This document shows positions 4,253-56,010 of a DNA stretch of 64,000 bases, piece by piece. Location: the sequence record MN850609.1. The stretch is one strand, 5' to 3'. The notes beneath the pieces are model-generated. The model worked only from the letters and a program-made list of their open reading frames with translations, was not told the DNA's origin and searched no databases. Source of the DNA: Escherichia phage dhaeg. The translations under genes were made by a program, and so were the position numbers. The number at the start of each line of letters is the position of its first letter. Positions within the stretch are counted from its first letter, which is position 1.

Positions 4253-7200
4253 TTAGTTTAACTTAGCTTCAAGTTCTTTTACTTTAGCCGACAGGGTTTT
4301 AACTGCTTCAATTAATAGAGCAACTTGTGCCTGAGTCGAAACTGTCAGAACTTTATTACCTTTGATATCTTCAACTTCACGAATAGCTTCAGGTAATACA
4401 TCATTCAATTTCTGAGCAATAACACCAGCTTCAGTATGAACAACCTCTCCACCAATATAATCAGCTTTATCATAGATTAAACCATCAAGCTGTTCAACCT
4501 TTTCAAGAGCGTTTTCAATTGGTTTGAAGTTTGATTTCAAACGAATATCAGAACGAATATAAACGTTTGGAGCATTTATATTCATATCTGAATAAGTGTC
4601 GCCACCTTGGAATCTCATTCGGCGGGCGGCATTGGTCCAAACTTCTAAAAGCCCGTCACCAACTTGTCTGAAACCCGTATCGTTATCGCCAATTGCAATC
4701 GAGTTACCACCCCAGGCATTAGTTGTGTTGACACCAAAGGCACCAATTTGAGGCGTATTAATCTTGGTATTAACGTTAAGAGTAGTTATACCGTTTACTT
4801 CACACTGGTTATATGAAGAACGGTTTGCACCACCTGGAGTTTTTTCGAAATAAACAATATAATTTGATTCGTCAGCTATTTCAATACGGTTTCCACGAGA
4901 AGCATCACCTGCATGGAATATACACATGTTTCTCGGGTTCGCCCCAGACTTATCAAAGTTAATGCTTCCATTATTTTTGAGGTTAAGGCCATTATAAAAC
5001 TCTGCAACTCCAGAAACACTCATAGAGTTTGAAATAGTTACTTTACCGGAAGCAATATTGATAGAAAAAGGCCTTAAACTGTTGTTAGAACCAGAGGCTT
5101 TAGTCTTATCAGTGTCAGTGTTCTTATCTGTTAATAATATATGGAACGTCGTACCATCATTATAAAACAGAGTAGCGGCAGAACCACTTTCATCACCATT
5201 GGATTTATGGCGGAAACCTACAGTTGTATTAGCAACAAAGGTGGCATTTGTAGAAATATTAGAACTACCCGCGTCAAAAACGTCTGAGCTATTATTAAGA
5301 AGTTTAAAAACACGACCTTTAACAGTATCTACAGGAAGCTCTTCTACCGGTGATTGCGTAGGCCCGTATAATCCATGAACTACTACTGAGGCGTTTTCTG
5401 AAGTGCTATATTCTAGAGTAAGTCTATTTAAATAAGTGCCACAATTAATATAAACATCATACTCATCGCCTGAGGTATTAACATACGCAATATCTTTAAT
5501 AGCATCTGTTTCACGTTGCCATAAAACACCGTTAATTCCTTTAGGCGTATTATTACCAGAACGTAATACAATTTCATTAATTGTTGCTTGTTTGAAAATA
5601 CCAACGTTAAAACCAGAGCCGCCTGTTATTTTAAATTGGACCGTAGCTACACCTTGAGGCATATTTACTGTTGCCAATTTATACCAACCACTTGCAGAAG
5701 AATAGTTAATCCAGCCCGTGGTAACTTTGCGGTCTAAAGTAGTATTCAGGTTAGAGAAATTACCAGAACCACCAGTGATATTACCATCCGTACCTAGATA
5801 AACAGAACCGCCAGCAGAAACACGTTTAGGAGATACAAAATCACCTGATTTAGTGAATTCCCAACCGTAGTCCGCAATCTGAGCACCGGTCGAACCACCA
5901 TCACCACCAGCATGATAATGAACGCGGAAGTTGCCGTTATTCAACAAAGTACCGATTGAAAAACATCCATTACCCTGAACATAACGTTGCTTAATCATTG
6001 GAACATAAGTGCTAGTATCATCTCGGTCAATATTCATGTAGAATGGAGCGCGGACATTTTCATTATTCTGGGAAGCAAATGAACCTGCACCAGCTGAACG
6101 ACCATTTGCATCCATCAAAGCATTTATATAAGCACCGTTTTCCAGGTCCATACGATAGTTAGGGTTAATTTTAGAATGACTGTTAATTGTAATCAAGAAT
6201 GCTTTGGTATCAATATTCAGCAGGCCATCGCCTCGAGCCGAGTTGCCTATCATTAAAGAATGGCCTATATTAATTGCGCCAGTACCTAATTCAATACTAA
6301 ATGGACGTAAATTGCTTATCGGCCCGTTTTCCCCTTCGTTTTCATTGGTTGGGATAATATGCAATGATGTTTCTGAGCGGCGGAAAATAGCCCCATACCG
6401 GTCGTTCCAAATTCTTAATGCGTCGTTAACGCCACCAATTTTAACCTGGCCGCTTATATTAGCGCCGCCGCGAATAGCCGCTCCATTTTCAAAAGTAACA
6501 CCACCACCAAAAGAACCTTTACCTGAAGCGGTAATATCGCCAAGACCAACGATATGACCTGTTTCAACAGTTCCGTTAAACTTAAAATTAACAGGTCCTA
6601 CACCACCAGCAACGGATGGATTAGTACGTTGAGCATAGAAATAATATCCTTGTGAGTCTGATACTTCGAATACAGTTTCTCTATTACCACCGCCCGCGTT
6701 AAATGAGTTACCCCATGCCTTAATTGTAACGGTATTTTTGTTCTGGCCATTTCGGGTGCCGGCGTCCCAGTTAATGGTTTTAGTACCATCTACACCGGAA
6801 GGAGCTTTAAATGATAATGCATTGGTATTATCATCACCGTTTAAAAATAAACCAGTACGCATAGAAATGCGATTGGTGGAGTCAAATGTACCATCTGCTC
6901 TAATAGCAACTCTATTGGACCCGGTTTTAACATCTAAAATACCCGGCTCAACAAGAAGCCCGTCGCCCATACTAACAGACATACGACCTTGGCCACGGAA
7001 ATAGTGATACATCTTTGCATTGCTGCTATAACCGATATGAGTCTGCCCATCACCGTTATTATTATCGTCGACATCAGTGCGTGCAGTAAACATTGCTTGG
7101 TTGTTATTTGGGAAATCCCATGTAGTACCTGAATCACGGCTATAACCAACCATCAATTTCTTAGTGCTATTAATACCGTTATTCAAAATGGTAGCAGATG

Positions 7201-8227
7201 AAATACCATTAGCCATGAAATCAATAACACCATCGCGGACCCATTTAATACCGGTATCGTTATCGCCAATTGCAATACCAATAGAAATGGCGGAATCTAA
7301 AGGATAGCGTCCATTTGTACCGTTATCCGGAAGACCTACTGAAATAGATTTACCCGCAGTAATACGTCCAGAGTTATCAAACGCCCATTGGAAAGATGAA
7401 GGACCTACACCAGTCCACCAAGAAATTTCTTGTGGTTTACCTTTGCGACAATCAGCAATTTCATGGAAAATACTTGATGCACTTGATGCACGCAATTTAC
7501 GCAAATAGTTTAAACCGTTAGTAGTATCATCAGAGCCATCAGCAGGTGGATTATAAACCCAGGTAGGTAATGAAACCCAATCATACCCGATGTTGGCGTT
7601 AGCTACAAATGTTTTTGTACTGAAATTAATATTTTTGGTAACAATTTCAGGACCGGTGATAATACCATTAGCTGAATTTATGTTTCCTGATGCAGAAATA
7701 TTACCTGCTGATACCATTAAACTACCGCTATCAACTTGAAAATTACCATTACGATTAAAGGTCCAATATTTTGAATCACCTGTTTCATTAATATAGTGGA
7801 ATTTAAAACTGCCTTCGTTTACTAATGTACCTGCTGAAAAAGTACCGTCTTTATAACGTTGCTTAATCAAAGGGTGGTATTCTGAAACAGAAGTAGTTGA
7901 ACTCAAATCTGTAAAGATAGGGGCTTTATTCAGATGTTGGTTAGCCCAGGCGCCGTTGCCAGCTGTTTTAGGCAGGAATTCGATGTATTTACCTGCATAA
8001 ACATATTGGTTGCCATTGAGGTTAAATGTCCCGTTTTGAAGAACATCCCCATCAATGGTCCCACCCTTTGCAAAGCCTAAATCAATAATCTGACCTTGGT
8101 CTGACTTAGTAAAAATAGTGCGATCACGCAAGTTAATAGCCAGTTCACCTTCATCTAACTGGGCTGCAGTAGGCTTGGCTCCTGCTATTTTACTTCTTTT
8201 AAATTGTATCGATTTTAAAGTAGCCAT
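4253..8227 (-). CDS. 37: long tail fibre distal subunit gp37
   Basis: 1324 aa; position between gp36 and gp38; Gly/Asn/Thr/Ser-rich fibrous composition; size fits T2-type gp37. Confidence 0.85.
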   Translation of the reverse strand: MATLKSIQFKRSKIAGAKPTAAQLDEGELAINLRDRTIFTKSDQGQIIDLGFAKGGTIDGDVLQNGTFNLNGNQYVYAGKYIEFLPKTAGNGAWANQHLNKAPIFTDLSSTTSVSEYHPLIKQRYKDGTFSAGTLVNEGSFKFHYINETGDSKYWTFNRNGNFQVDSGSLMVSAGNISASGNINSANGIITGPEIVTKNINFSTKTFVANANIGYDWVSLPTWVYNPPADGSDDTTNGLNYLRKLRASSASSIFHEIADCRKGKPQEISWWTGVGPSSFQWAFDNSGRITAGKSISVGLPDNGTNGRYPLDSAISIGIAIGDNDTGIKWVRDGVIDFMANGISSATILNNGINSTKKLMVGYSRDSGTTWDFPNNNQAMFTARTDVDDNNNGDGQTHIGYSSNAKMYHYFRGQGRMSVSMGDGLLVEPGILDVKTGSNRVAIRADGTFDSTNRISMRTGLFLNGDDNTNALSFKAPSGVDGTKTINWDAGTRNGQNKNTVTIKAWGNSFNAGGGNRETVFEVSDSQGYYFYAQRTNPSVAGGVGPVNFKFNGTVETGHIVGLGDITASGKGSFGGGVTFENGAAIRGGANISGQVKIGGVNDALRIWNDRYGAIFRRSETSLHIIPTNENEGENGPISNLRPFSIELGTGAINIGHSLMIGNSARGDGLLNIDTKAFLITINSHSKINPNYRMDLENGAYINALMDANGRSAGAGSFASQNNENVRAPFYMNIDRDDTSTYVPMIKQRYVQGNGCFSIGTLLNNGNFRVHYHAGGDGGSTGAQIADYGWEFTKSGDFVSPKRVSAGGSVYLGTDGNITGGSGNFSNLNTTLDRKVTTGWINYSSASGWYKLATVNMPQGVATVQFKITGGSGFNVGIFKQATINEIVLRSGNNTPKGINGVLWQRETDAIKDIAYVNTSGDEYDVYINCGTYLNRLTLEYSTSENASVVVHGLYGPTQSPVEELPVDTVKGRVFKLLNNSSDVFDAGSSNISTNATFVANTTVGFRHKSNGDESGSAATLFYNDGTTFHILLTDKNTDTDKTKASGSNNSLRPFSINIASGKVTISNSMSVSGVAEFYNGLNLKNNGSINFDKSGANPRNMCIFHAGDASRGNRIEIADESNYIVYFEKTPGGANRSSYNQCEVNGITTLNVNTKINTPQIGAFGVNTTNAWGGNSIAIGDNDTGFRQVGDGLLEVWTNAARRMRFQGGDTYSDMNINAPNVYIRSDIRLKSNFKPIENALEKVEQLDGLIYDKADYIGGEVVHTEAGVIAQKLNDVLPEAIREVEDIKGNKVLTVSTQAQVALLIEAVKTLSAKVKELEAKLN

Positions 8228-8235
8228 AATGCCTC

Positions 8236-10084: not shown

Positions 10085-13000
10085 TTATGGTGTATCAATC
10101 CATTCGAATTTAACAGAACGAGTTACTGGGTCCGGAATTATACGAACGTTACCAATACGTAACCAATCACGAATGGTCAAGTTACTCATTGAAGCATTAT
10201 CAGAAGGTAATGCACCAATATCAGACGGTTGAGGTGGGTTACCGCCATCAAATACCTGAACAAATCCAGACCAAGCATTTTTATTTTGCTGCCAAGTACG
10301 AGTCCAACGAGTTGTGCTTCCATCTGCAGTATTTGGATAGGTAATCCAATCCTGGTAAAGTGAATTCAGAGTGTTACCGAACTGAGTTAATGTACCTGGT
10401 GATTTAACTTCTTCACCACGAACCAAATACGGCAACCCTGTTACTTCGTTAATTTTTTCAACCATTTTAAAATAACCAGGGAACTGATTATAAGTAGCCG
10501 AATCATTAACGTCAACAGACCAAAAGCCTGTATTGTCTGCATTAGGTTTTCTGGAATAAAGGTCGGCAGGTTTAGTACCTTGAGAACGAATTCTCGAGTT
10601 AACCGTTAAACCGCCATTAGCTGTCAAAGGGTCTCGGACAGTTAACGTATTATTAATTGCAACACTACCATCAAATCTTGATGCAGCTGTAGCAACAAAA
10701 CCTGTGGTAGTAATACCAGATGCTTTAGTTACACTTAACCCGCCATTAATAGTAGCATTACCGTTGTATAGAGTTAAGTCACCTTCTGATAAAAGTAGGG
10801 AACCATCTCTACGGAAGGTCCATCTTCTTTGTGTCTGGGCTTCATCAATATAATGCAATACAAATGAACCTTCGTCCGGACTTGTTTCAGATTCATTTAT
10901 TAAAGTACCAAAACTAAATGTCCCGGTTTTATACCTTTGCTTTGCGATAGGAACATATTTAGAAGAACCTGGACCTGTAGTTATATTTACAAATATAGGT
11001 GCTTTAACATTAGAAGCATGTTGTGAAGCCCAACTACCTGCACCTTGAGTCTCTGAAATAAATTCAATATAATTCAGAGTACCTACAGTAGAATTGCTAT
11101 TGATTGTAGTAGAACCGGTTAATGTAGTATTATTTGAAGTAATAGAACCACTCAAATTAACTGCACCTGTAACGGTTAAAGTACTTTCAATTCTTACAGG
11201 CTGTTTAAATGCCATATTAGCATTAATATCTTGTGCTATATCACGACGAATAAACTGCGCGCTATCAAATCCATCTAATTTATCAGAGTCAAAAGCCTTA
11301 CCTTTAATCGGAAGATAGTGAGTTAATGCCGTATTCATTTGAAGAGGGGAAATAGCAAAGCCATCGTCTTCAAATTTAGCCAGGTTAGCAACAGAACCGT
11401 TAGTATCGTCACCTTCCCAAGTGGCTGTACCTGTAGTTAATTTAACATATCCTCTACGAGCAGAAGTAGCTTCCCAGGATTTTTCCTGTTGGACGATATA
11501 TTTGTAATGCTTAGGACTAAACGCTTTATTACTTACCGTACCATCAATAACTTCGGCCTGAGTAGCAAGCTGGATAATACCTTCGGCATTTTCGGTAGCC
11601 TTTTTAGCTTGAAGCTTAAGAGGAGTAATGATTGTTTTATCATCGGTTCCAGTATTAACTTCAGTTTGGGTAGCCAAACGAGCCGTACCACGTTGGGTAT
11701 TACTTGCTTCACGGATATCTAGTGTATAATGGTTCCATAAGGTTCCTGATTCAATCAAACCGCTGGCTGCTGAGACAGAAGTTCTAGCAGTATTATCAAA
11801 TCTTGTTTTAATTTTCAACGGAGTTGAAATAACATTATCTAATACACCTGCATCAAATTCTACTTGAGTACCAATACGAGCAATACCAGTTAAAGTCTCT
11901 GTAGCCTTCCTATCATTTAACGTCTTAGGCGTTACCGCACGAGTATAATCAGTTCCAGCATCAGTCTCTGCTTGCGTAGCAATTTCAATTAAACCATGAT
12001 TAGTATCAGTAGAACGACGAGCACCTAATGTTTCAGGTGTGACAACCGAGTTACTAAAACCAGGGTTAGTAGCACCAGCATTAACTTCGGCTTGCGTAGC
12101 AAGATATACGGCACCTTGGTTATTTTGGTCAGCTTTATACTGGTCCAAAGCTTTAGGAGAAATAACTAAAGTAGTAGTGTTCTTATTATAAACGTTGGTA
12201 CCTACAGTTGCTCTGGAGTCCGCAGGAGTGGTTCCTGTGGTAGATACATATTTTACTATACCAGACAGGCTTTCGGTTCCCTGGCGCGTCTGTAGCTTCT
12301 TAGGAGTGATAATGGTTGTATCATCAACACCTGCATCAGTTTCCTGTTGCGTAGCAATTTCAGCTACACCACGACGAGTTTCTGTAGCAGTACGTTCGTT
12401 TAATTTCTTAGGAGAAATAATCAAATCGTCCTGGAAAGCGAAAGTTGTATTCTGGTTTACCTGAGCAGTTGTAGCAATACGAGCAATACCACGACGTGAT
12501 TCGGTGGCAACACGATTAGCTAAAGTCTGTGGAGTAATTGCAAGTTCTTTTTCAGGATTATTTTCATGGTCGACGTTTGCCTGGGTCTGAGATGCAAGGG
12601 CAATAACACCGAGACGAGCACGAGTTAAATCATCCTTAGAATCCACACGTTCTACAGTAGGAACGTTCTGAGCAACCACCCAGTAGTTAACGTTAATATC
12701 TGTATCTTCAAGATAACTTAATTCGATAACCGGAGTATAACTTAAGTTACCATTAAAGGTCAATACGTCATTCAGAACCCATTCAGTATCCGGTGGATAT
12801 TCCGAACGTTTAGGGAACTGGAGCAATTGAACCGAAGAAGCAATTTTATCACCTACAGCAGCCTTAATATTTACTGTCTGGGCTTTACGAAGATAGTTCA
12901 ATGCGATTTTAATAGTATCGCCTTGCGCTACGTTAGTAGGTAAAGTGATATTAATAGTTTGTGGAGTTGTGTTATTAGGACCAAAAACAATAACACTTTC

Positions 13001-18954: not shown

Positions 18955-20076
<1,122 letters not shown>

Positions 20077-20077
<1 letters not shown>

Positions 20078-20937
20078 TGAAACAATACCAATTTTTAATT
20101 AAAGATATCCTGGAAAATGGCTACGAAACCGACGACCGTACCGGCACCGGTACAATTGCACTGTTCGGTACTAAATTACGTTTTGATTTAACTAAAGGCT
20201 TTCCTGCAGTAACAACTAAAAAATTAGCATGGAAAGCCTGTATTGCTGAGCTCCTTTGGTTCCTTTCGGGTTCAACTAACGTTAATGACCTTCGTTTCCG
20301 TACTCACGGTTCATTAATTGGCGGCAAAACTATTTGGGACGAGAACTATGAAAATCAGGCCAAAGACCTAGGTTATCATAGTGGTGAACTGGGTCCGGTA
20401 TACGGGAAACAATGGCGAGATTTTGGTGGTGTCGACCAGGTTGTAGAAATTATCGACCGCATTAAAAAGATGCCTAATGACCGACGTCAAATAGTATCTG
20501 CATGGAACCCGGCTGAAATCGACCAGATGGCTCTTCCTCCATGTCATTGTTTTTACCAGTTCAACGTTCGTAATGGACATCTTGACCTCCAGTGGTACCA
20601 ACGTTCTGTTGACGTGTTCTTAGGATTGCCATTTAATATTGCCTCTTACGCCGCTCTTGTGCATATTGTAGCTAAGATGTGTAATCTTATTCCGGGCGAT
20701 TTAGTGTTCTCAGGCGGCAATACGCACATCTATTCTAACCACGTTGAACAATGCCAAGAAGTTCTTCGTCGTGAGCCTAAAGAGCTTTGTGAACTGGAAA
20801 TTAATTGGCCTGAAGGATTCTCTGATTGGAGCACGACATTACAGCTTTATTGGGTAACAGAGCATATGGTCCATGAAGATTTTAAACTCATTGGTTACGA
20901 ATCACACCCTACCATTAAGGCTAAAATGGCTGTATGA
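20077..20937 (+). CDS. td: thymidylate synthase, uninterrupted (no intron)
   Basis: 286 aa from MKQYQ; continuous match to T4 TS through ...GNTHIYSNHVEQC.E.LRREPKEL; no intron or intron ORF. Confidence 0.95.
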
Positions 20938-20998
20938 AAATTCAAATAATCTGTACTCTGTTTTTGGTTATTATGGTCGGACTGAATTTGGTGTTATA

Positions 20999-21292
20999 AT
21001 GAGAGTCTGTAGAGTTGTTAACAAGTATAAAGAAGATTTTGATGTCAATATCCAGCGTGGAACCATGTGGGGTAATCCATTTAAAGATGGTACCCGCGAG
21101 GAAAACATCAAGAACTTTAAAGAATACTTTATTGCTAAAATAAAATCGGGTGAAATTAAAAGAGAACACCTTGAAACCCTTAGAGGTATGCGAATAGCGT
21201 GCACCTGTAAACCTAAGGACTGTCATGGGGATGTGATAGCCCTGGTTGTTAACAAACTTTTCAAAGATACGTTCTCATTAGAAGACCTATAA
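20999..21292 (+). CDS. hypothetical protein with DUF4326-like motif (GNPF ... C.CKP..CHGDV)
   Basis: 97 aa from ATG at 20999; motif pattern only. Confidence 0.5.
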   Translation: MRVCRVVNKYKEDFDVNIQRGTMWGNPFKDGTREENIKNFKEYFIAKIKSGEIKREHLETLRGMRIACTCKPKDCHGDVIALVVNKLFKDTFSLEDL

Positions 21293-21358
21293 ATATCAGT
21301 CCATGCTTAACAGGTTCTATGTTATTATAGATGTAGAACCTAACATATTGAGGAAATT

Positions 21359-23614
21359 ATGCAAGTACAAAAGAGTAGTGGTGTATCCCAAGATTTTGAC
21401 GCACAAAAAATTATTAAAGTTCTGACTTGGGGCTGTGAAGGAACCCAAATCGACCCCTATGAATTATACGAAGAAATCAAATCCCATCTTCGTGATGGTA
21501 TGACCACCAAAGATATCCAGAATCTGACTGTTAAGGTAGCAGCCAACCTTATCTCGGTTGAAGAACCCGATTACCAATATGTTGCTGCAAAGCAATTGAT
21601 GTTTGCCCTGCGTAAAGAAGTTTATGGCCAGTTTGAACCGCGTAGTTTTATTGACCATATTTCCTATTGTGTTAACGAAGGTAAATATGACCCTGAATTG
21701 CTGTCTCGATATTCTGCGGAAGAAATTACTTTCTTAGAATCTCATATCAAGCATGAACGCGATTTTGAATTGACCTATGCGGGTGCAATGCAGCTGAAAG
21801 AGAAATATCTGGTTAAAGATAAAACAACCGGTAAAATCTACGAAACCCCTCAGTTCGCTATCATGTGTATTGGTATGGCCTTACACCAAGACGAGCCAGG
21901 TAACCGTTTAGCACATATTATTCGTTTTTATGACGCTGTAAGTACTCGTCAGGTTTCGTTGCCTACTCCTATTATGGCAGGAGCACGTACTCCAACCCGT
22001 CAATTTAGTTCTTGTGTGGTTATTGAAGCAGGCGACTCGCTGAAATCTATTAACAAAACCGCTAACTCAATAATTGAATACATTTCTAAACGTGCAGGTA
22101 TTGGTATCAACGTTGGTATGATTCGTGCTGAAGGTTCTCGTATTGGCATGGGTGAAGTCAAGCATACCGGTGTTATTCCATTCTGGAAACATTTCCAGAC
22201 TGCTGTTAAATCATGTTCACAAGGTGGAATCCGTGGCGGCGCTGCTACTGCTTATTATCCTATTTGGCATTTGGAAGTTGAAAATCTGCTCGTTCTGAAA
22301 AACAACAAAGGTGTCGATGAGAACCGTATTCGACATATGGACTACGGAATCCAGTTGAACGACCTTATGATGGAACGTTTCGGTAAAAATGATTACATCA
22401 CGTTGTTCAGTCCTCATGAAATGGGCGGTGAGCTTTATTATTCTTATTTTGAAGACCAAGAACGTTTCCGTGAATTGTATGAAGCGGCTGAAAAAGACCC
22501 TAGCATTCGCAAGAAACGTATTAAAGCACGCGACCTCTTTGAATTGTTCATGACCGAACGTTCAGGCACTGCACGAATTTATCCTCAGTTTGTTGATAAC
22601 ACTAACAACTTCACACCATTTATTCGTGAAAAGGCTCCTATTCGCCAGAGTAACTTGTGTTGTGAAATTGCTATCCCGACCACCGATGTGAATAGTCCGG
22701 ACGCTGAAATCGGGTTGTGTACGCTGTCTGCATTCGTGTTGGATAACTTTGATTGGCAAGACCAAGACAAAATCAACGAACTTGCTGAAGTACAGGTACG
22801 TGCACTTGATAACTTGTTAGATTATCAAAGCTATCCTGTTCCTGAAGCTTTGAAGGCTAAGAAACGTCGTAACCTGGGTGTAGGTGTTACGAACTACGCC
22901 GCATGGTTAGCAAGCAACTTTGCTTCTTATGAAGATGCAAACGATTTAACTCACGAATTGTTTGAGAGATTACAGTATGGACTTATCAGAGCATCAATCA
23001 AGTTGGCCGAAGAAAAAGGGCCTTGCGAGTATTATTCAGACACTAAATGGTCTCGAGGCGAGCTTCCTATCGACTGGTACAATAAAAAGATTGACCAAAT
23101 CGCAGCCCCAAACTATGTTTGTGACTGGTCGTCGTTGCGGGAAGACTTGGCTAAACATGGCATCCGTAATAGCACATTATCAGCACTTATGCCATGCGAG
23201 TCAAGCAGCCAAGTTTCCAACTCTACAAACGGTATCGAACCTCCGCGTGGTCCGGTAAGTATTAAAGAATCTAAAGAAGGTAACTTCCGTCAGGTAGTTC
23301 CTAATGTAGAACATAACCAAGGCCTCTATGATTACGCTTGGAGCCTCGCTAAGAAAGGTAATAAACCTTATCTTACCCAAGTAGCAATTATGTTGAAATG
23401 GGTTTGCCAATCTGCATCAGCGAATACGTATTACGACCCTCAGAACTATGAGAAAGGAAAAGTTCCTATGTCAGTAATGCTTGATGACCTGTTATATTTC
23501 TGGTACTTTGGTGGTAAGAACCTTTACTATCATAACACCCGTGATGGCTCTGGTACCGACGATTATGAAATCGAAACCCCTAAAGCCGATGATTGCGCAG
23601 CTTGTAAGCTTTAA
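21359..23614 (+). CDS. nrdA: aerobic ribonucleotide reductase large subunit
   Basis: 751 aa; N-terminal ATP-cone, catalytic-site block SNLCCEI, C-terminal redox-active cysteines (..CAACKL). Confidence 0.95.
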   Translation: MQVQKSSGVSQDFDAQKIIKVLTWGCEGTQIDPYELYEEIKSHLRDGMTTKDIQNLTVKVAANLISVEEPDYQYVAAKQLMFALRKEVYGQFEPRSFIDHISYCVNEGKYDPELLSRYSAEEITFLESHIKHERDFELTYAGAMQLKEKYLVKDKTTGKIYETPQFAIMCIGMALHQDEPGNRLAHIIRFYDAVSTRQVSLPTPIMAGARTPTRQFSSCVVIEAGDSLKSINKTANSIIEYISKRAGIGINVGMIRAEGSRIGMGEVKHTGVIPFWKHFQTAVKSCSQGGIRGGAATAYYPIWHLEVENLLVLKNNKGVDENRIRHMDYGIQLNDLMMERFGKNDYITLFSPHEMGGELYYSYFEDQERFRELYEAAEKDPSIRKKRIKARDLFELFMTERSGTARIYPQFVDNTNNFTPFIREKAPIRQSNLCCEIAIPTTDVNSPDAEIGLCTLSAFVLDNFDWQDQDKINELAEVQVRALDNLLDYQSYPVPEALKAKKRRNLGVGVTNYAAWLASNFASYEDANDLTHELFERLQYGLIRASIKLAEEKGPCEYYSDTKWSRGELPIDWYNKKIDQIAAPNYVCDWSSLREDLAKHGIRNSTLSALMPCESSSQVSNSTNGIEPPRGPVSIKESKEGNFRQVVPNVEHNQGLYDYAWSLAKKGNKPYLTQVAIMLKWVCQSASANTYYDPQNYEKGKVPMSVMLDDLLYFWYFGGKNLYYHNTRDGSGTDDYEIETPKADDCAACKL

Positions 23615-23667
23615 TAAAATCTGATTATAATTGACTCATGGATGAGTCACTAACAAATGAGAATAAT

Positions 23668-24807
23668 ATGTCTACAGTTTTTAATACTACCCCAGTTGAT
23701 GTTTTAGTCGAACCGATGTTCTTTGGTTCAGGATTGGGTATTGCTCGTTACGATATCCAACGTCATAAAGTATTCGAAGAGCTTTGTGAAAAGCAGTTGA
23801 GTTTCTTCTGGCGTCCAGAGGAAGTTAACTTGATGATGGATGCTGCCCAGTTTAATAAGCTTCCTCAATTCCAACAAAATATTTTTACCAATAACCTGAA
23901 GTATCAATCACTTCTGGATAGTATCCAGGGACGTGCTCCTTCTGCTGCGCTCCAAGCATTGATTTCAGACCCTAGCCTTGATACATGGGTGGCTACATGG
24001 ACCTTTAGTGAAACTATTCACTCTCGTTCGTATACCCATATCATGCGTAACCTATACACAGACCCATCTAAGGTATTTGATGAAATTCTGTTAGATGAAG
24101 CTATCATGAAACGTGCTGAATCTATTGGTCGCTATTATGATGATGTTATTGAGAAAACCCGACTTTACCAGAATGCTTTAGAAGAATATCATGAGTTTAG
24201 CGAAGGCGTAAAACAGGCCAAATACGAACTAATGCGCTCTCTTTACCTCTGCCTGCATGTAATAAACGCATTGGAAGCTATTCGTTTTTATGTATCTTTC
24301 GCATGTACCTTTAACTTCCATAAGAATATGGAAATCATGGAAGGTAATGCTAAGATTATGAAGTTCATTGCACGTGATGAACAGCTTCACCTTAAAGGCA
24401 CCCAGTACATTATCCGTCAACTCCAGCTTGGTACAGATGGTGATGAATGGGTTAAAATTGCTCAAGAGTGTGAACAAGAAGCAGTTGATATTTTCATGGA
24501 AGTTAACCGACAAGAAAAAGAGTGGGCCGCTCACCTGTTCAAAGATGGTACTTGCCCTGGATTAAATACTCAGAACATGGGTGCTTTTGTCGATTACCTG
24601 ACAGTTTCTCGTATGAAGCAATGTGGCTTACCGTGTCCTATTACTGATGCCCCTACTCGCCATCCTTATCCTTGGATTCGCGAATACCTGAACTCTGATG
24701 CTGTACAGGCTGCTCCTCAGGAAGTGGAAATCAGTTCTTACCTTGTAGCACAAATTGATAATGACGTCGATGAAAAAGTAATGGCGTCATACAAGAAATA
24801 TTTTTAA
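23668..24807 (+). CDS. nrdB: ribonucleotide reductase small subunit, uninterrupted
   Basis: 379 aa from MSTVFNTTPVD (T4 NrdB start); no intron; only 54 nt separates it from nrdA. Confidence 0.92.
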   Translation: MSTVFNTTPVDVLVEPMFFGSGLGIARYDIQRHKVFEELCEKQLSFFWRPEEVNLMMDAAQFNKLPQFQQNIFTNNLKYQSLLDSIQGRAPSAALQALISDPSLDTWVATWTFSETIHSRSYTHIMRNLYTDPSKVFDEILLDEAIMKRAESIGRYYDDVIEKTRLYQNALEEYHEFSEGVKQAKYELMRSLYLCLHVINALEAIRFYVSFACTFNFHKNMEIMEGNAKIMKFIARDEQLHLKGTQYIIRQLQLGTDGDEWVKIAQECEQEAVDIFMEVNRQEKEWAAHLFKDGTCPGLNTQNMGAFVDYLTVSRMKQCGLPCPITDAPTRHPYPWIREYLNSDAVQAAPQEVEISSYLVAQIDNDVDEKVMASYKKYF

Positions 24808-24834
24808 GGAATGGGGCTTCGGCCCCTTATTGCT

Positions 24835-25248
24835 ATGAAAGAAATCGCAGATGAATTTAGCTTTATCAAGTACGTTACACTGGAGCTCCAAACAGATGCT
24901 ACTATAGCCCCTATCACGGTTCCAAATAAACAAAATGTCATATATGCTATAGCGGTTGATGATATACTAGTCTACATCGGGAAGACTAAAAATCTTCGTA
25001 AGCGCATCAACTACTACCGAACCGCTATTAATCGTAAGGACCAAACGTCGGATTCGACCAAGTCCATTCTGATTCATGAAGCATTAATGGCTGGTAAAAA
25101 GGTAGAGTTCTATGCTAGACAGTGCTTTAATCTGTCAATGACTAACGAACTTGGAACTATGTCAGTTGAGACCATGTCTCTTGAAGAGCCAATGTTCATA
25201 AAGAAATTTAATCCACCTTGGAATACCCAACATAGGATAAAGCAATGA
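24835..25248 (+). CDS. denA: endonuclease II (GIY-YIG family)
   Basis: 137 aa from MKEIADEF; VIYAIA..D.LVYIGKTKNLRKRINYYR GIY-YIG block; near-colinear with T4 EndoII (136 aa). Confidence 0.9.
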   Translation: MKEIADEFSFIKYVTLELQTDATIAPITVPNKQNVIYAIAVDDILVYIGKTKNLRKRINYYRTAINRKDQTSDSTKSILIHEALMAGKKVEFYARQCFNLSMTNELGTMSVETMSLEEPMFIKKFNPPWNTQHRIKQ

Positions 25249-26393
25249 TTGAATTATATGATAACTTGATGACTTTGGTTAAAAACTCGACTAAATCTAA
25301 GTTCTTCTTTAAAGACTTCCAGAGTGCGCTAGGAGTCAACTATCGCATCTTTAGTTATAACTATGCATCGTACAGTGATTGGTTGGAAGACGGCGCACTA
25401 GAGTGCCGAGGCATTATGTTTGAAATGGACGAGAATGGTCCTGTACGTATCGCTGCTCGTCCTATGCAAAAGTTCTTTAATCTCGATGAAAACCCGTTGA
25501 CTATTGGTTTGGATTTATCACAAGAAAATATCGACCTCGTAATGGCCAAGGAAGATGGTTCTTTGATTTCTACCTTCATGGATAGACAATATCTTTCTGT
25601 TAAATCTAAAGGCTCTATCCATTCATCGATGGTACATGATTCTTTACGTTTCCTTCGACTCCCTGAAAATGAGGCCTTTGCTGCTCGTTTAGAAGAAATT
25701 ACTAAAGCAGGCTATACGTGCAACCTCGAGTATGTTTCGCCTACTAACCGTATTGTGCTGGCATACCAAGAAACAAACCTTATCTTACTGAACGTTCGTA
25801 ATAACGAAACAGGTGAGTATATCCCTTACGCTGAACTGTTTAAAGATGGCGCTCTGCGTAAGCATTTGGTTAAAAGCTATGAACTCGCTGAAGGTGATTT
25901 TGTTGACAATATCCGTAAACAAGAGGGTATTGAAGGCTTTATCTTTGTACTTAAAGATGGTACGTTCTTTAAACTCAAAACCGCTTGGTATAGCGCACTG
26001 CATCATACCAAAGATTCCATTAACAACAACGAACGTTTGTTTGAAGTTGTAGTGGCCGGTGGAACCGATGACCTCCGAGGTTTGTTCAGCACAGATTCAT
26101 TTGCTATTGAGAAAATCAATGCATTTGAACGTATCCATTTAGACTACTTAGAACAGTCCTTGGCTTTGTTAGAAGCAGCATATTCTCAGCTCAAGGGTCG
26201 TGACCGTAAAGACTATGCTGTTACCGGTCAGTTAATTCTCAAAGACTTCCCAGGGCTGTTCTCTATTCTTATGCAGGCGTACGTAGGCGGTATTAATTAT
26301 GATACGGTCGTAGACCAGATTAACTCTGTGTTCTTGAAAAATCATAAGGCCCAAATCCCTGAAAAATATTTGAAAGAAATTGTGATAGAGTAG
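25245..26393 (+). CDS. rnlA: RNA ligase 1
   Basis: 382 aa; YRIFSYNYASYSDW...ALECRGIMFEMD, KEDGSL (lysine nucleotidyl motif), NRIVLAYQE...LLNVR.NETGEY match T4 Rnl1. Confidence 0.95.
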   Translation: MIELYDNLMTLVKNSTKSKFFFKDFQSALGVNYRIFSYNYASYSDWLEDGALECRGIMFEMDENGPVRIAARPMQKFFNLDENPLTIGLDLSQENIDLVMAKEDGSLISTFMDRQYLSVKSKGSIHSSMVHDSLRFLRLPENEAFAARLEEITKAGYTCNLEYVSPTNRIVLAYQETNLILLNVRNNETGEYIPYAELFKDGALRKHLVKSYELAEGDFVDNIRKQEGIEGFIFVLKDGTFFKLKTAWYSALHHTKDSINNNERLFEVVVAGGTDDLRGLFSTDSFAIEKINAFERIHLDYLEQSLALLEAAYSQLKGRDRKDYAVTGQLILKDFPGLFSILMQAYVGGINYDTVVDQINSVFLKNHKAQIPEKYLKEIVIE

Positions 26394-26421
26394 TTTACAT
26401 CTCCTCATGATGTGTTAGTAT
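26393..26421 (+). promoter_or_regulatory. early promoter cassette upstream of alc
   Basis: gtttac 26393-26398, tagtat 26416-26421, flanked by inverted repeat ctcctcat/atgaggag whose 3' arm contains the SD. Confidence 0.5.
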
Positions 26422-26451
26422 AGACTTACCAACTAATGAGGAGAAAACAAA

Positions 26452-26952
26452 ATGAATATGCAAATGATTACCAACGAAATGGTTGTTAAAGCTTTTGGTG
26501 ACTCTACTGACGGTATCCAAGTTTTTAAAGGTTCTCGTGCAGTAGGGTACCTAACCGATCTTCGTGTTACTTTAGCTAAAAATGCTAAAAAGAAAATTAA
26601 GCAAAAAGAATACTCAACCCGTTATGCAGAAGAAAAGCGTGAAGCCATGCCGGAAGCTGTTAACTCTATGGTTGAGTTTCTCCAAAACAACCTTTCTAAG
26701 TATGATGCTGAGGTATTCATTAATATCAGCCAACCTAATGTCAAAGTCGCAGGAATCACTTTCTATTTGATTTGCGACCCATTAAGCGATAAGTTTAATC
26801 GCCTTGGCATTTCCAGCCCGTACCATACCGCTGAAGAATTGTGCGTGATGTTTGAAACGTATAAAATCCAGTGTGAAAACCCTAAAACGGTTCTTATCAA
26901 CTCCCTGTCACGTGATGACATCATCGAGATTATTACCAAATGTCTAAATTAA
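26452..26952 (+). CDS. alc: putative Alc (host transcription shutoff) by position
   Basis: 166 aa between rnlA and the spanin pair, as alc (about 167 aa) is in T4. Confidence 0.55.
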   Translation: MNMQMITNEMVVKAFGDSTDGIQVFKGSRAVGYLTDLRVTLAKNAKKKIKQKEYSTRYAEEKREAMPEAVNSMVEFLQNNLSKYDAEVFINISQPNVKVAGITFYLICDPLSDKFNRLGISSPYHTAEELCVMFETYKIQCENPKTVLINSLSRDDIIEIITKCLN

Positions 26953-53448: not shown

Positions 53449-54861
53449 ATGGCTTTTACTGTAAGTATAGCCGGCACAGCGTCTATTAAAATAGGCGAAA
53501 GTGCTAACTACACTGCTACCGCAACAGGTGCAGCTGTAGAAGGAACCATTACATATGTATGGTCTATTGATGGTGCTTCTAATCCAGAAGCAACCAATGT
53601 TTTGAAATATACAGGTGCTGCACCTGTAGGTAAGAAAGTTTTAAAAGTAGTAGCAACTTCTACTCCGGCTGAAGGCGAACCTGAGGTAGCTGAAGATACT
53701 TTTGAAGTTACCGTAGCTAATAAGACCATGTCTATTTCTTTGGCTTTGGACCCTATTTCTGTTTCTAAAGAAGTTGGCCAATCTCAAGTTGTTACTGCTA
53801 ACGTGACGGGTGCACCTGCAGGTGCAACAATTGCTTATGTTTGGAAACGTAACACCAGCGTAATCTCTGGCCAAACTGGTAAAACTATTACTGTAACCGA
53901 AGCCGCGGAAGCAAATTACACGTTGAACTGTGAAGTTACTGTTACCGCCCCTGAATATAACCCGGGTACCGCTACTAAAGGTGCTGCGGTAACTTTTGTT
54001 AAGAAAACTATATCAGGTGTTTCTGTTACTTTAACACCGGCCTCAATTAGTACAGAGAAAGACTCATCTGCACAGTTTAAAGCGGATGTAGTCGGCGCTC
54101 CTTCCGGCGTAAATGCAACTTATTCTTGGAAGAAAAACGGTTCTATTATTCCGGGCGAAAGCAGTAATACTCTTGCTGTTGATACGTCTACAATAGGTTC
54201 TTACTCTATTGAAGTTTCGGTACTCCTAAAAGGTACGGATTATAATGATTTAACCGTTACCAAAACAGGAAGTGTAACAATTACTAAAAAGACTATGGCA
54301 GGTGTTTCTGTTAATTTAACGCCTGCTTCTATTACTGTCTCTGAAGGAATCCCGGCTTCTTTTAAAGCCACGGTAGTCGGTGCGCCTAGTGGTGCTACTT
54401 TTGCTTATTCTTGGAAGAAAGATGGTTCACCTGTTGTGGGTGCTACGGATACATTAGTAATTGACACAAGCGCTGAAGGTTCACAGGTTATTGAAGTTTC
54501 TGTTGTGGTTTCGGCTACCGACTATAATTCTGTGACCGTCACAAAATCCGGTAATGTAACAATTACGGCTAAAGTCGCTCCTGAACCAGAGGGCGAACTA
54601 CCTTACGTTCATCCGCTACCAGTTCGTAATTCAGCTTATATTTGGTGTGGTTGGTGGGTTATGGACGAAATTCAGAAAATGACCCTTGAAGGCAAAGACT
54701 GGAAAACTGACGAACCTGATAGTGAATATTATCTCCATCGTTATACCCTTCAAAAAATGGTAGCCGATTATCCTGAGGTTGATGTACAGGAATCTCGTAA
54801 TGGTAGAATTATTCACAGAACCGCTTTGGATGCTGGAATTATTTACGATTACGTTTATTAA
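53449..54861 (+). CDS. hoc: Hoc highly antigenic outer capsid protein, four Ig-like repeats + capsid-binding C-terminus
   Basis: 470 aa; C-terminus PEPEGELPYVHPLP...AYIWCGWWVMDEIQKMT.EGKDWKTD.PDS.YYLHRYTLQKM..DYPEVDVQESRNG.IIH.TAL matches T4 Hoc; four tandem ~90-aa Ig-like repeats. Confidence 0.92.
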   Translation: MAFTVSIAGTASIKIGESANYTATATGAAVEGTITYVWSIDGASNPEATNVLKYTGAAPVGKKVLKVVATSTPAEGEPEVAEDTFEVTVANKTMSISLALDPISVSKEVGQSQVVTANVTGAPAGATIAYVWKRNTSVISGQTGKTITVTEAAEANYTLNCEVTVTAPEYNPGTATKGAAVTFVKKTISGVSVTLTPASISTEKDSSAQFKADVVGAPSGVNATYSWKKNGSIIPGESSNTLAVDTSTIGSYSIEVSVLLKGTDYNDLTVTKTGSVTITKKTMAGVSVNLTPASITVSEGIPASFKATVVGAPSGATFAYSWKKDGSPVVGATDTLVIDTSAEGSQVIEVSVVVSATDYNSVTVTKSGNVTITAKVAPEPEGELPYVHPLPVRNSAYIWCGWWVMDEIQKMTLEGKDWKTDEPDSEYYLHRYTLQKMVADYPEVDVQESRNGRIIHRTALDAGIIYDYVY

Positions 54862-54864
54862 TAA

Positions 54865-54886
54865 AGGGCCGCAAGGCCCTTATTTA
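54865..54886 (+). terminator. terminator after hoc
   Basis: agggcc-gcaa-ggccct + TATTT (weak T-run). Confidence 0.45.
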
Positions 54887-54946
54887 GTTTATGATAATGT
54901 TTCGGGAGATTAAGTTATTGACGAATAATTTTTAATAGGTGGATAT

Positions 54947-55126
54947 ATGAAATTTAACAAAGATATAGGGTTGTTGGTTTTCTTTATAGTGCTGTTTTTG
55001 TTTTCGTTAATTTCATTAACTAGTGGGTTGTTTGCTTCTATATTGGCTCTTTTCACATGCATTAGTTCCTTTTTTGGGATAATAGCTACTATAGATAAAA
55101 TTTTACATACCAAAAAGGGCCCGTAG
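54947..55126 (+). CDS. small hydrophobic ORF (59 aa, predicted membrane peptide)
   Basis: MKFNKDIGLLVFFIVLFLFSLISLTSGLFASILALFTCISSFFGIIA...; sits between convergent terminators; weak SD. Confidence 0.3.
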   Translation: MKFNKDIGLLVFFIVLFLFSLISLTSGLFASILALFTCISSFFGIIATIDKILHTKKGP

Positions 55127-55140
55127 GCCCTTTATTATTT
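55114..55140. terminator. bidirectional terminator
   Basis: aaagggcc-cgta-ggcccttt with T-runs on both strands. Confidence 0.6.
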
Positions 55141-56001: not shown

Positions 56002-56010
56002 TTAACCTCC

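What the first reader, a model, noticed from the sequence alone, without database searches (positions are those of the whole stretch)
20077..24807. td and nrdB are uninterrupted: no group I introns, no intron homing endonucleases, no mobE
td encodes a continuous 286-aa thymidylate synthase and nrdB a continuous 379-aa R2 protein, and only 54 nt separate nrdA from nrdB. In T4 these loci carry self-splicing introns encoding I-TevI and I-TevIII, and a free-standing mobE. Their absence makes these loci naive insertion sites, useful for studying homing, and suggests an ancestral or streamlined state. The td C-terminal region (after ...RREPKELCEL) is divergent from what I recall for T4.
Basis: partly seen in the sequence, partly recalled or inferred. 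Interest (0 to 1): 0.35.

Follow-up and report, generated by a model that had tools for sequence, protein, structure and literature searches.

The report
Intron-free td and nrdB genes
This JS98-like (Dhakavirus) T4-type coliphage has uninterrupted thymidylate synthase and ribonucleotide reductase genes with no introns or homing endonucleases, which is the usual, already published state for this phage group and for most T4 relatives.

Summary
Nothing is inserted at the T4 intron sites (20625/20626 and 24304/24305). A covariance-model scan finds no group I intron here, while the same setting finds both T4 introns.

It is not new. The window is a Dhakavirus, 95-98% identical to JS98, CLB_P2 and dhabil. 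Published work already lists JS98 and JS10 as having no homing endonuclease genes and no mobE. Only 216 (I-TevI) and 129 (nrdB intron) of about 1000-1300 phage records with this locus carry the elements.

The three target sites look intact in sequence. For I-TevI the CAACG motif is kept, for I-TevIII 57 of 60 bases match, and the MobE codon 42 is AAG. Phage Bp7 of the same genus has acquired the nrdB intron at exactly this site, so "vacant homing site" is supported.

"Streamlined" is not supported: a 68-aa accessory gene sits between frd and td and was exchanged recently with Tequatrovirus phages.

The divergent Td C-terminus is real. It is a 33-aa hypervariable cassette that also differs within the genus.

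The parts
19293..19874 (+). frd, dihydrofolate reductase (193 aa)
   Evidence: Pfam DHFR_1, E=2e-18. Annotated frd in CLB_P2 and JS98.
19871..20077 (+). orf68, an accessory 68-aa gene of unknown function. Its start overlaps the frd stop (ATGA) and its stop overlaps the td start (TAATG). It is absent from T4, Bp7 and fDHCT2.
   Evidence: phrog_9550, E=4e-45, no Pfam match. Found in 237 phage records, including Tequatrovirus and, more distantly, Phapecoctavirus. 93-100% DNA identity to Tequatrovirus fFiEco06 over 19853-20132, against about 78% in the flanks.
20077..20937 (+). td, thymidylate synthase, uninterrupted, 286 aa
   Evidence: Pfam Thymidylat_synt 1-266/266, E=1.6e-98. Matches the T4 TS structure 1TIS over 1-286, E=1e-161. 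Collinear with spliced T4 td. Catalytic PPCH motif at aa 154.
20599..20603 (+). CAACG, the I-TevI cleavage motif, 27-23 nt upstream of the vacant td intron site
   Evidence: Identical to T4. Cleavage at -23/-25 is taken from PMC2988022.
20625..20626 (.). Vacant td intron insertion site (between these two bases)
   Evidence: Equivalent of the T4 exon junction TTGGGT|CTACCG. The window reads TTAGGA|TTGCCA. 28/38 bases are identical over -27..+11 and every difference is at a third codon position.
20797..20895 (+). Td aa 241-273, a hypervariable cassette-like segment that includes the phage-specific insertion relative to bacterial ThyA
   Evidence: 33% identity to T4 here against 89% over aa 1-240. 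JS98 is 100% identical over aa 1-240 but 52% here. DNA identity to JS98 falls to 47% at 20816-20875. Only 23 of 779 phage records are >=80% identical.
20999..21292 (+). nrdA.1 homologue (DUF4326). The ORF is open from 20873 and overlaps the td 3' end.
   Evidence: Pfam DUF4326, E=2e-21. T4 NrdA.1 hits the same family. phrog_464.
21359..23614 (+). nrdA, class Ia RNR large subunit, uninterrupted, 751 aa
   Evidence: ATP-cone, all-alpha and barrel domains, with barrel 1-523/523, E=1e-133.
23615..23667 (+). 53-nt nrdA-nrdB spacer. No mobE, hef or dam gene and no terminator. It holds the -10 hexamer of a promoter-like site (TTGTAA-18-TATAAT, 23602-23631) and a palindrome TGACTCAT-GG-ATGAGTCA (23632-23649).
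   Evidence: Sequence read directly. Consensus scan. The scan found no more promoter-like sites than shuffled sequence gives, so the promoter call is only compatible with the statement in PMC2790892 about mobE-less phages.
23668..24807 (+). nrdB, class Ia RNR small subunit, uninterrupted, 379 aa
   Evidence: Pfam Ribonuc_red_sm, E=2.5e-38. 331 identical columns of 389 against spliced T4 NrdB. Iron and radical motifs SETIHSRSY, EAIRFY and RDEQLH are present.
23791..23793 (+). nrdB codon 42 = AAG, at the mapped MobE nicking position, followed by the FFWRPEE block
   Evidence: PMC2790892 states that AAG occurs in T2 and all mobE-less phages, while T4 has CGG.
24169..24249 (+). Length-variable NrdB loop. 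The window has the short form. T4 is 9 aa longer and IME281 is 13 aa longer; Bp7 carries the same long form at the DNA level.
24289..24291 (.). Positions -16 to -14, where I-TevIII cuts relative to the insertion site
   Evidence: Cleavage positions from PMC1865063. The window is identical to T4 here.
24304..24305 (.). Vacant nrdB intron insertion site (between these two bases, inside a Cys codon, T|GT)
   Evidence: 57/60 bases identical to the spliced T4 junction over -30..+30. Bp7 has its 1088-nt intron exactly here.
24811..25248 (+). denA, endonuclease II. This is a GIY-YIG enzyme that degrades host DNA, not a homing endonuclease.
   Evidence: Pfam GIY-YIG, phrog_1111 E=1.6e-63. Annotated denA in JS98, Bp7 and T4.
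25245..26393 (+). rnlA, RNA ligase 1. It overlaps denA by 4 nt, so there is no HEG between them.
   Evidence: Pfam RNA_lig_T4_1 and T4_Rnl1_C. IME281 has a 216-aa HEG at this junction.

Best explanation
The interval is the ordinary nucleotide-metabolism gene block of a JS98-like T4-type coliphage (genus Dhakavirus): frd, orf68, td, nrdA.1, nrdA, nrdB, denA and rnlA. td, nrdA and nrdB are plain continuous genes that need no splicing. The two T4 intron sites and the nrdA-nrdB spacer are unoccupied, as in the type phages of the genus and in most T4 relatives. The DNA the three T4 endonucleases act on lies in codons for catalytically essential residues, so it is conserved here. The phage is therefore expected to be a recipient, not a donor, if it co-infects a cell with an intron-bearing or mobE-bearing relative. 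The divergent Td C-terminus is a separate matter. It is a surface segment of about 33 residues that has been swapped by recombination many times among T4-type phages.

Shown: gene continuity, absence of the elements, conservation of the target sequences, the polymorphisms within the genus, and the cassette pattern.

Inferred: that the sites would actually be cut and converted, and that the empty state is ancestral for the genus.
For: Identity of the phage: 98.4% to CLB_P2, 98.0% to dhabil and 95.4% to JS98 over 6.1 kb, all Dhakavirus.

Continuity: collinear alignment with spliced T4 td and nrdB. Full-length Pfam domains in Td, NrdA and NrdB.

No intron RNA: no group I intron model hit at E<=10, with a working T4 positive control.

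Literature: JS98 and JS10 have no HEGs (PMC2993671) and are in the mobE-less set (PMC2790892).

Base rates: I-TevI DNA is in 216 phage records and the nrdB intron in 129. The locus itself is in 984-1304 records.

Target sites: CAACG is kept at -27..-23, the nrdB site is 57/60 identical, and codon 42 is AAG.

Natural precedent: Bp7 has an intron 99% identical to the RB3 type at the same nrdB site. Its upstream exon flank is T4-like (48/50) where the window is 42/50.

Cassette: JS98 Td is 100% identical over aa 1-240 and 52% over aa 241-273.
Against: - No experiment shows that I-TevI, I-TevIII or MobE cut this DNA.
- The td site differs from T4 at 10 of 38 positions. The base before the insertion site is A where T4 has T, the uridine that a group I intron needs at its 5' splice site (general knowledge of group I introns). 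Correct splicing after invasion would therefore depend on co-conversion of the flank.
- "Ancestral" rests on distribution and the absence of conversion footprints, not on a dated phylogeny.
- The window alone cannot show whether the rest of the genome, for example nrdD, is intron-free.
Confidence: 0.9

Rival explanations
1. Secondary loss. An ancestor of this phage carried the nrdB intron, the td intron or both, and lost them precisely, for example by recombination with an intron-less allele. On this reading the empty sites are derived, not ancestral.
For: The 100 nt just downstream of the nrdB site are 98/100 identical to T4, while the gene averages about 80%. Same-codon use with T4 is raised over NrdB codons about 200-300. 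595 phage records are >=90% identical over 24305-24424, against 59 for a control nrdB segment with equally conserved protein sequence.
Against: - The raised conservation reaches Klebsiella and other genera.
- That stretch is rich in residues with one- or two-fold degenerate codons (M, F, N, H, K, E, Q), so it needs no conversion event.
- The upstream flank is not T4-like (42/50), unlike Bp7, which really did receive the intron (48/50).
- The td flanks are 70-77% identical to T4 with no local rise.
- All close relatives except Bp7 are empty.
Confidence: 0.06
2. The Td C-terminal difference from T4 is ordinary gradual divergence of a loosely constrained tail. It is not a swapped cassette.
For: The segment has the same length as in T4 (286 aa in all). 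A few anchor residues are kept (P, F, T, QL, DF, L). It lies in an insertion that bacterial ThyA lacks, so it is probably a surface region.
Against: JS98 Td is 100% identical to the window over aa 1-240 and only 52% over aa 241-273. DNA identity drops from 92-100% to 47% within 60 nt and then recovers. Two phages of the genus Jiaodavirus also differ in this segment, including a 5-aa indel. Sharp edges in otherwise near-identical genes indicate replacement by recombination.
Confidence: 0.15
3. A degenerate or unusual mobile element is hidden in the interval. Candidates are an intron remnant, an intein in nrdA, or a disguised endonuclease in the td-nrdA gap or downstream of nrdB.
For: The 145-aa ORF after nrdB hits the GIY-YIG family.
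Against: - The 139-aa ORF is DUF4326, the nrdA.1 homologue.
- The GIY-YIG protein is DenA, endonuclease II (phrog_1111 E=1.6e-63, syntenic with T4 denA).
- NrdA domains are continuous, with barrel 1-523/523, and the protein is 751 aa, so there is no intein.
- There is no RNA family hit.
- orf68 has no nuclease motif and no family with a known function.
- Compared with HEG-free JS98, the whole 64-kb window gains only a 2.6-kb block, which encodes an Ig-like and a collagen-like protein.
Confidence: 0.03

Closest known systems
Phage JS98 / JS10 (Dhakavirus) frd-td-nrdA-nrdB-denA block
   Same: Same gene order and the same intron-less td and nrdB. Same short nrdA-nrdB spacer and the same 379-aa NrdB. 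95.4% DNA identity over 6.1 kb. JS98 and JS10 are published as HEG-free and mobE-less.
   Different: The JS98 Td C-terminal cassette (aa 241-273) is only 52% identical. JS98 leaves the orf68 region unannotated, although the DNA is there.
Phage T4 td / nrdA / mobE / nrdB region
   Same: Homologous genes in the same order. Td is 80% identical and NrdB 85% identical in protein. The nrdA.1 (DUF4326) and denA neighbours are shared.
   Different: T4 has a 1017-nt td intron with I-TevI, a 598-nt nrdB intron with a truncated I-TevIII, mobE plus nrdB.1 between nrdA and nrdB, and nrdA.2. The window has none of these. T4 lacks orf68. T4 NrdB is 9 aa longer in the variable loop. T4 codon 42 is CGG, not AAG.
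Phage T2 as the classical intron-less, mobE-less recipient in T4 x T2 crosses
   Same: Empty nrdA-nrdB spacer. AAG at nrdB codon 42, followed by FFWRPEE. No terminator in the spacer. These are the features PMC2790892 reports for mobE-less phages.
   Different: T2 belongs to a different genus (Tequatrovirus). No cross between T4 and a Dhakavirus has been reported in the papers I read. T2 sequence was not aligned here.
Phage Bp7 (Dhakavirus) nrdB with the I-TevIII intron
   Same: Same genus, with 92-93% DNA identity across the block. The intron sits exactly at the site that is empty in the window.
   Different: Bp7 carries a 1088-nt intron, 99% identical to the RB3/RB6/RB10 type, encoding a 268-aa HNH I-TevIII. 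Its upstream exon flank has been converted to T4-like sequence. It lacks orf68.

Membership tests
Group I intron in td or nrdB (Rfam RF00028, T4 td/nrdB type) | Extra sequence at the exon junction relative to the spliced gene | tested here: not met
   Window td and nrdB align continuously across the T4 junctions, with no gap at 20625/20626 or 24304/24305.
Group I intron in td or nrdB (Rfam RF00028, T4 td/nrdB type) | Match to the group I intron covariance model | tested here: not met
   No hit at E<=10 in 19000-26500. The T4 introns score E=9e-8 and 2e-6 with the same setting.
Intron-encoded homing endonucleases I-TevI (GIY-YIG) and I-TevIII (HNH) | An endonuclease ORF nested inside td or nrdB | tested here: not met
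   There is no room for one, because both genes are continuous. The only GIY-YIG protein nearby is DenA, outside nrdB.
mobE / hef type free-standing HNH endonuclease between nrdA and nrdB | An ORF with HNH and NUMOD motifs in the nrdA-nrdB interval | tested here: not met
   The spacer is 53 nt with no ORF. T4 mobE hits HNH and T4 nrdB.1 hits NUMOD3.
Thymidylate synthase ThyA (PF00303) | Full-length domain with the catalytic Cys in the PPCH motif | tested here: met
   Profile 1-266/266, E=1.6e-98. PPCH at aa 154. Matches the T4 TS structure 1TIS over 1-286.
Class Ia ribonucleotide reductase beta subunit (PF00268) | Domain match together with the di-iron and tyrosyl-radical motifs | tested here: met
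   E=2.5e-38. SETIHSRSY, EAIRFY and RDEQLH are present. 85% identical to T4 NrdB.
I-TevI homing site (td) | A cleavage motif of the form C-N-N-N-G, 23-27 nt upstream of the insertion site, and a binding region spanning the site | tested here: met
   CAACG is at 20599-20603. 28/38 bases are identical over -27..+11 and the differences are all synonymous. The spacing and the 38-bp site are taken from PMC2988022. The C-N-N-N-G requirement is from my own knowledge (Edgell et al. 2004).
I-TevI homing site (td) | Actual cleavage by I-TevI and conversion to intron-plus | not testable with these tools
   Needs an enzyme assay or a phage cross.
I-TevIII homing site (nrdB) | Sequence spanning the cleavage positions (-14/-16) and the insertion site | tested here: met
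   57/60 identical to T4 over -30..+30 and identical at -16..-14. Positions from PMC1865063. Bp7 shows natural invasion at this site within the genus.
MobE target (5' nrdB) | AAG at codon 42 next to the FFWRPEE-coding block, as in mobE-less phages | tested here: met
   Codon 42 is AAG at 23791-23793 and FFWRPEE follows. The criterion is from PMC2790892.
Genus Dhakavirus (JS98-like T4-type phages) | High nucleotide identity and collinearity with the type members | tested here: met
   95-98% over 6.1 kb. The 64-kb window is collinear with JS98 except in the tail-fibre genes and one 2.6-kb block.

The most novel reading that the evidence does not exclude
The 33-residue Td segment (aa 241-273, 20797-20895) may be a recombining hypervariable cassette under diversifying pressure. 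One possible cause is that free-standing homing endonucleases inserted just downstream of td, as seen in Tegunavirus and Jiaodavirus, cut in the td 3' end, so that sequence change there gives immunity. Another is that this phage-specific surface insertion is a contact or a defence target. In either case a core metabolic enzyme would carry an arms-race module.
Probability: 0.12. Interest if true: 0.45.

Novelty: already known. Interest (0 to 1): 0.1.

Why it matters
It matters little on its own. The absence of the T4 introns and mobE is the rule outside a subset of T-even phages and is already on record for JS98-type phages. Its practical value is modest. The phage could serve as a recipient in homing crosses, and Bp7 together with two Mosigvirus phages shows that the I-TevIII intron is moving between coliphage genera at exactly this site. 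The more useful by-products are three descriptions:
- the gene junctions around td and nrdB are recurrent insertion points (orf68, dam, several HEGs);
- the Td C-terminal segment is a swapped cassette;
- Rfam's gathering threshold misses the classic ORF-bearing T4 introns.

Tried and rejected
1. Rfam at the gathering threshold found nothing in the window. It also found nothing in T4 or Bp7, which do have introns. I rejected that negative as uninformative and repeated the scan at the E-value threshold with T4 as a positive control.

2. I looked for a co-conversion footprint of a past nrdB intron. Identity to T4 downstream of the site is raised compared with a control segment. I rejected it as evidence of past occupancy for three reasons: the pattern holds across genera, the stretch is rich in low-degeneracy codons, and the upstream flank is not T4-like.

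3. I considered whether orf68 travels as a passenger of I-TevI conversion tracts. The high-identity patch (19853-20132) is separated from the I-TevI cut site (about 20601) by roughly 470 nt of td sequence that is only 60-90% identical to the Tequatrovirus copy. I judged this unlikely.

4. The AlphaFold model of orf68, from a 12-sequence alignment, had mean pLDDT 55.7. That is too poor for a fold search, so none was run.

5. An apparent hypervariable patch against CLB_P2 at 24169-24249 was mostly an artefact of gap columns forced by the longer IME281 loop. A direct alignment shows only a few substitutions.

6. A search for MotA-box consensus matches gave 15 hits where 9 are expected, and none in the nrdA-nrdB spacer. 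The promoter and terminator scan was not above shuffled controls. The nrdB promoter call is therefore only compatible with the literature, not shown.

7. A literature search for a description of the T4 TS C-terminal insertion found nothing usable.

Full report
**What the window is.**

The 6.1 kb around the finding (19200-25300) is 98.4% identical to Escherichia phage CLB_P2, 98.0% to dhabil and 95.4% to JS98. All three are Dhakavirus (Straboviridae, Tevenvirinae). The whole 64-kb window is collinear with JS98, apart from the divergent tail-fibre genes and one 2.6-kb block.

**Anatomy.**

All genes lie on the + strand:

| Gene | Coordinates | Notes |
|---|---|---|
| frd | 19293-19874 | dihydrofolate reductase |
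| orf68 | 19871-20077 | 68 aa, phrog_9550, unknown function |
| td | 20077-20937 | 286 aa |
| nrdA.1 homologue | about 20999-21292 | DUF4326; ORF open from 20873 |
| nrdA | 21359-23614 | 751 aa |
| spacer | 23615-23667 | 53 nt |
| nrdB | 23668-24807 | 379 aa |
| denA | 24811-25248 | endonuclease II |
| rnlA | 25245-26393 | RNA ligase 1 |

Minus-strand ORFs in the interval are short and match no family. Base composition is flat.

**Check of the observation.**

I fetched the T4 region and derived the T4 exon junctions. td exon 1 ends ...TTGGGT and is followed by a 1017-nt intron. nrdB exon 1 ends ...TTTGCGT and is followed by a 598-nt intron.

- Window td aligns to T4 td at 1-548 and 553-735, matching T4 1-548 and 1570-1751.
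- Window nrdB aligns at 6-635 and 638-1140, matching T4 6-662 and 1263-1765.
- Both alignments run straight across the junctions. The equivalent positions in the window are 20625/20626 and 24304/24305.
- The nrdA stop is at 23612-23614 and the nrdB start at 23668. That leaves 53 nt, not 54, and no ORF.

Rfam at its gathering cut-off found nothing in the window. It also found nothing in T4 or Bp7, so that negative is worthless. At the E-value threshold the T4 td and nrdB introns are found (E=9e-8 and 2e-6, both below the gathering score). The same scan of window 19000-26500 gives no intron hit at E<=10.

Td, NrdA and NrdB all have full-length domains and the expected catalytic motifs.

**Is it unusual?**

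No.

- Petrov et al. (PMC2993671, Table 5) list JS98 and JS10 with no homing endonuclease genes at all. They state that the three intron-borne endonucleases reside in the T-even cluster.
- Wilson and Edgell (PMC2790892) placed JS98 and JS10 among the phages without mobE.
- In the phage collection the locus is found in 984 records, and nrdB segments in 1161-1304 records. I-TevI DNA is in 216 records and the nrdB intron in 129. The empty state is therefore the majority.

**Are the sites intact?**

*td.* The I-TevI cleavage motif CAACG is kept at 20599-20603, 27 to 23 nt upstream of the site. 28 of 38 bases are identical over -27..+11. All ten differences are at third codon positions, and the protein ([24 protein letters not shown]) is unchanged. 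I-TevI cuts at -23/-25 and recognises a 38-bp target (PMC2988022). The need for a C-N-N-N-G motif is from my own knowledge. The base at -1 is A, where T4 has the U that a group I intron needs at its 5' splice site. A newly arrived intron would therefore depend on co-conversion of that flank (inference).

*nrdB.* 57 of 60 bases are identical to T4 over -30..+30, including the -14/-16 cleavage positions reported for I-TevIII (PMC1865063).

*MobE.* Nicks map to nt 122-126 of nrdB. Codon 42 is AAG in T2 and all mobE-less phages and is followed by FFWRPEE. The window has AAG at 23791-23793 followed by FFWRPEE, while T4 has CGG.

All of this is sequence evidence. Cleavage itself was not testable.

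**Evidence from relatives.**

The junctions of this gene block are polymorphic within the genus:

- Bp7 has a 1088-nt intron with a 268-aa HNH I-TevIII exactly between the equivalents of 24304 and 24305.
- fDHCT2 has a D12-class Dam methylase gene in the nrdA-nrdB spacer.
- IME281 has a 216-aa homing endonuclease (phrog_314) between denA and rnlA.
- Bp7 and fDHCT2 lack orf68.

The Bp7 intron is 99% identical to that of RB3, RB6 and RB10. The 50 nt upstream of it are T4-like (48/50), where the window is 42/50. That is a co-conversion tract. The same intron (98-99% identical) is also in the Mosigvirus phages KAW3E185 and AV111. The element is therefore crossing genus boundaries, and the window's site is a genuine vacant target.

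**Ancestral or lost?**

The stretch downstream of the nrdB site is unusually similar to T4 (98/100). Same-codon use is raised over codons 200-300. 595 records are >=90% identical there, against 59 for a control segment.

I do not read this as a conversion footprint, for three reasons:

- It extends to Klebsiella and other genera.
- The stretch is rich in low-degeneracy codons.
- The upstream flank is not T4-like.

The td flanks show no local rise either. The empty state is best read as ancestral for the genus, with modest certainty.

**Not "streamlined".**

orf68 sits between frd and td. Its start overlaps the frd stop and its stop overlaps the td start. T4, Bp7 and fDHCT2 join frd directly to td.

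orf68 occurs in 237 phage records. 121 of them are >=95% identical in protein, including Tequatrovirus phages. There are also 40-45% identical copies in Phapecoctavirus.

Against Tequatrovirus fFiEco06, which carries the td intron, window 19853-20132 is 93-100% identical in DNA. The flanking frd and td sequence averages about 78%. This is a recently exchanged accessory gene.

Its function is unknown. It has no Pfam match, and database homologues are all unnamed. The structure model was poor (pLDDT 55.7, three predicted helices).

**The Td C-terminus.**

Identity to T4 is 215/245 up to ...KELCEL and 14/41 after it. The divergent part is aa 241-273. It includes an insertion that bacterial ThyA lacks.

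JS98 Td is 100% identical to the window over aa 1-240 but only 52% over aa 241-273. DNA identity falls to 47% at 20816-20875. Two Jiaodavirus phages also differ in this segment, including an indel. Only 23 of 779 phage records are >=80% identical to the window's version.

The sharp edges point to repeated replacement by recombination. In Tegunavirus and Jiaodavirus the td-nrdA gap holds a homing endonuclease on the opposite strand, abutting the td 3' end. This suggests, but does not show, a link between endonuclease traffic and this variable segment.

**Verdict.**

Interest is low. The side observations (junction hot-spots, the orf68 exchange, the Td cassette, the spread of the I-TevIII intron between genera) are descriptive and of modest interest.

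Noticed in passing
window 19871-20077 (high-identity patch 19853-20132): A 68-aa ORF (phrog_9550, unknown function) is wedged between frd and td with overlapping stop and start codons. It is absent from T4, Bp7 and fDHCT2. It is 93-100% identical in DNA to a Tequatrovirus copy against about 78% in its flanks, so it was exchanged between genera recently. More distant copies occur in Phapecoctavirus.
   Followed up: partly
L002 (Bp7) 6346-7433; L014 (KAW3E185) and L015 (AV111) 1501-2591: An nrdB group I intron with full-length I-TevIII, 98-99% identical to the RB3 type, is present in a Dhakavirus (Bp7) and in two Mosigvirus phages. This contrasts with the 2010 review statement that there was no convincing evidence for these introns moving beyond the T-even cluster. 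Bp7 shows a T4-like converted flank upstream of the intron.
   Followed up: partly
L002 (Bp7) 5671-6347: Bp7 nrdB exon 1 is annotated as two ORFs (nrdB, nrdB'). The spliced length is not a multiple of three. This is either a frameshift, and hence a pseudogene, or a sequencing error.
   Followed up: no
L004 (fDHCT2) 5674-6477: A D12-class Dam DNA methylase gene (Pfam E=1e-19) occupies the nrdA-nrdB spacer, the place where T4 has mobE.
   Followed up: partly
L003 (IME281) 7582-8232: A 216-aa free-standing homing endonuclease (phrog_314, no Pfam hit) lies between denA and rnlA in a same-genus phage. In the window these two genes overlap by 4 nt.
   Followed up: partly
L011 (phiR1-RT) 2138-2866; L012 (KpV477) 2153-2884; L013 (Nispero) 2138-2869: In Tegunavirus and Jiaodavirus the td-nrdA gap holds a homing endonuclease on the opposite strand, overlapping the td stop. 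The window has nrdA.1 in that gap. A different 105-120-aa ORF sits between frd and td in those phages.
   Followed up: no
window 24169-24249: There is a length-variable loop in NrdB. The short form (379 aa) is in the window, JS98, CLB_P2 and fDHCT2. T4 is 9 aa longer and IME281 is 13 aa longer (392 aa); Bp7 carries the same long form at the DNA level. The loop lies 55-135 nt upstream of the intron site.
   Followed up: partly
window 23632-23649: A perfect 8-bp palindrome with a 2-nt centre (TGACTCAT-GG-ATGAGTCA) lies in the nrdA-nrdB spacer. It contains the upstream in-frame ATG (23638) that some annotations use as the nrdB start.
   Followed up: no
window 54880-57516 (minus strand): A 2.6-kb block absent from JS98 encodes two proteins. 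One is a 288-aa Ig-like protein whose C-terminus resembles that of Hoc. The other is a 501-aa protein with collagen triple-helix repeats and CBM_5_12 modules. The block lies next to a 470-aa Hoc-like gene (53449-54861).
   Followed up: partly
L005 (T4) 5509-5749 and 10596-10826: Method note: the classic T4 td and nrdB introns score 40.3 and 35.7 bits against Rfam Intron_gpI, below its gathering score of 50. Default Rfam scans therefore miss them.
   Followed up: yes
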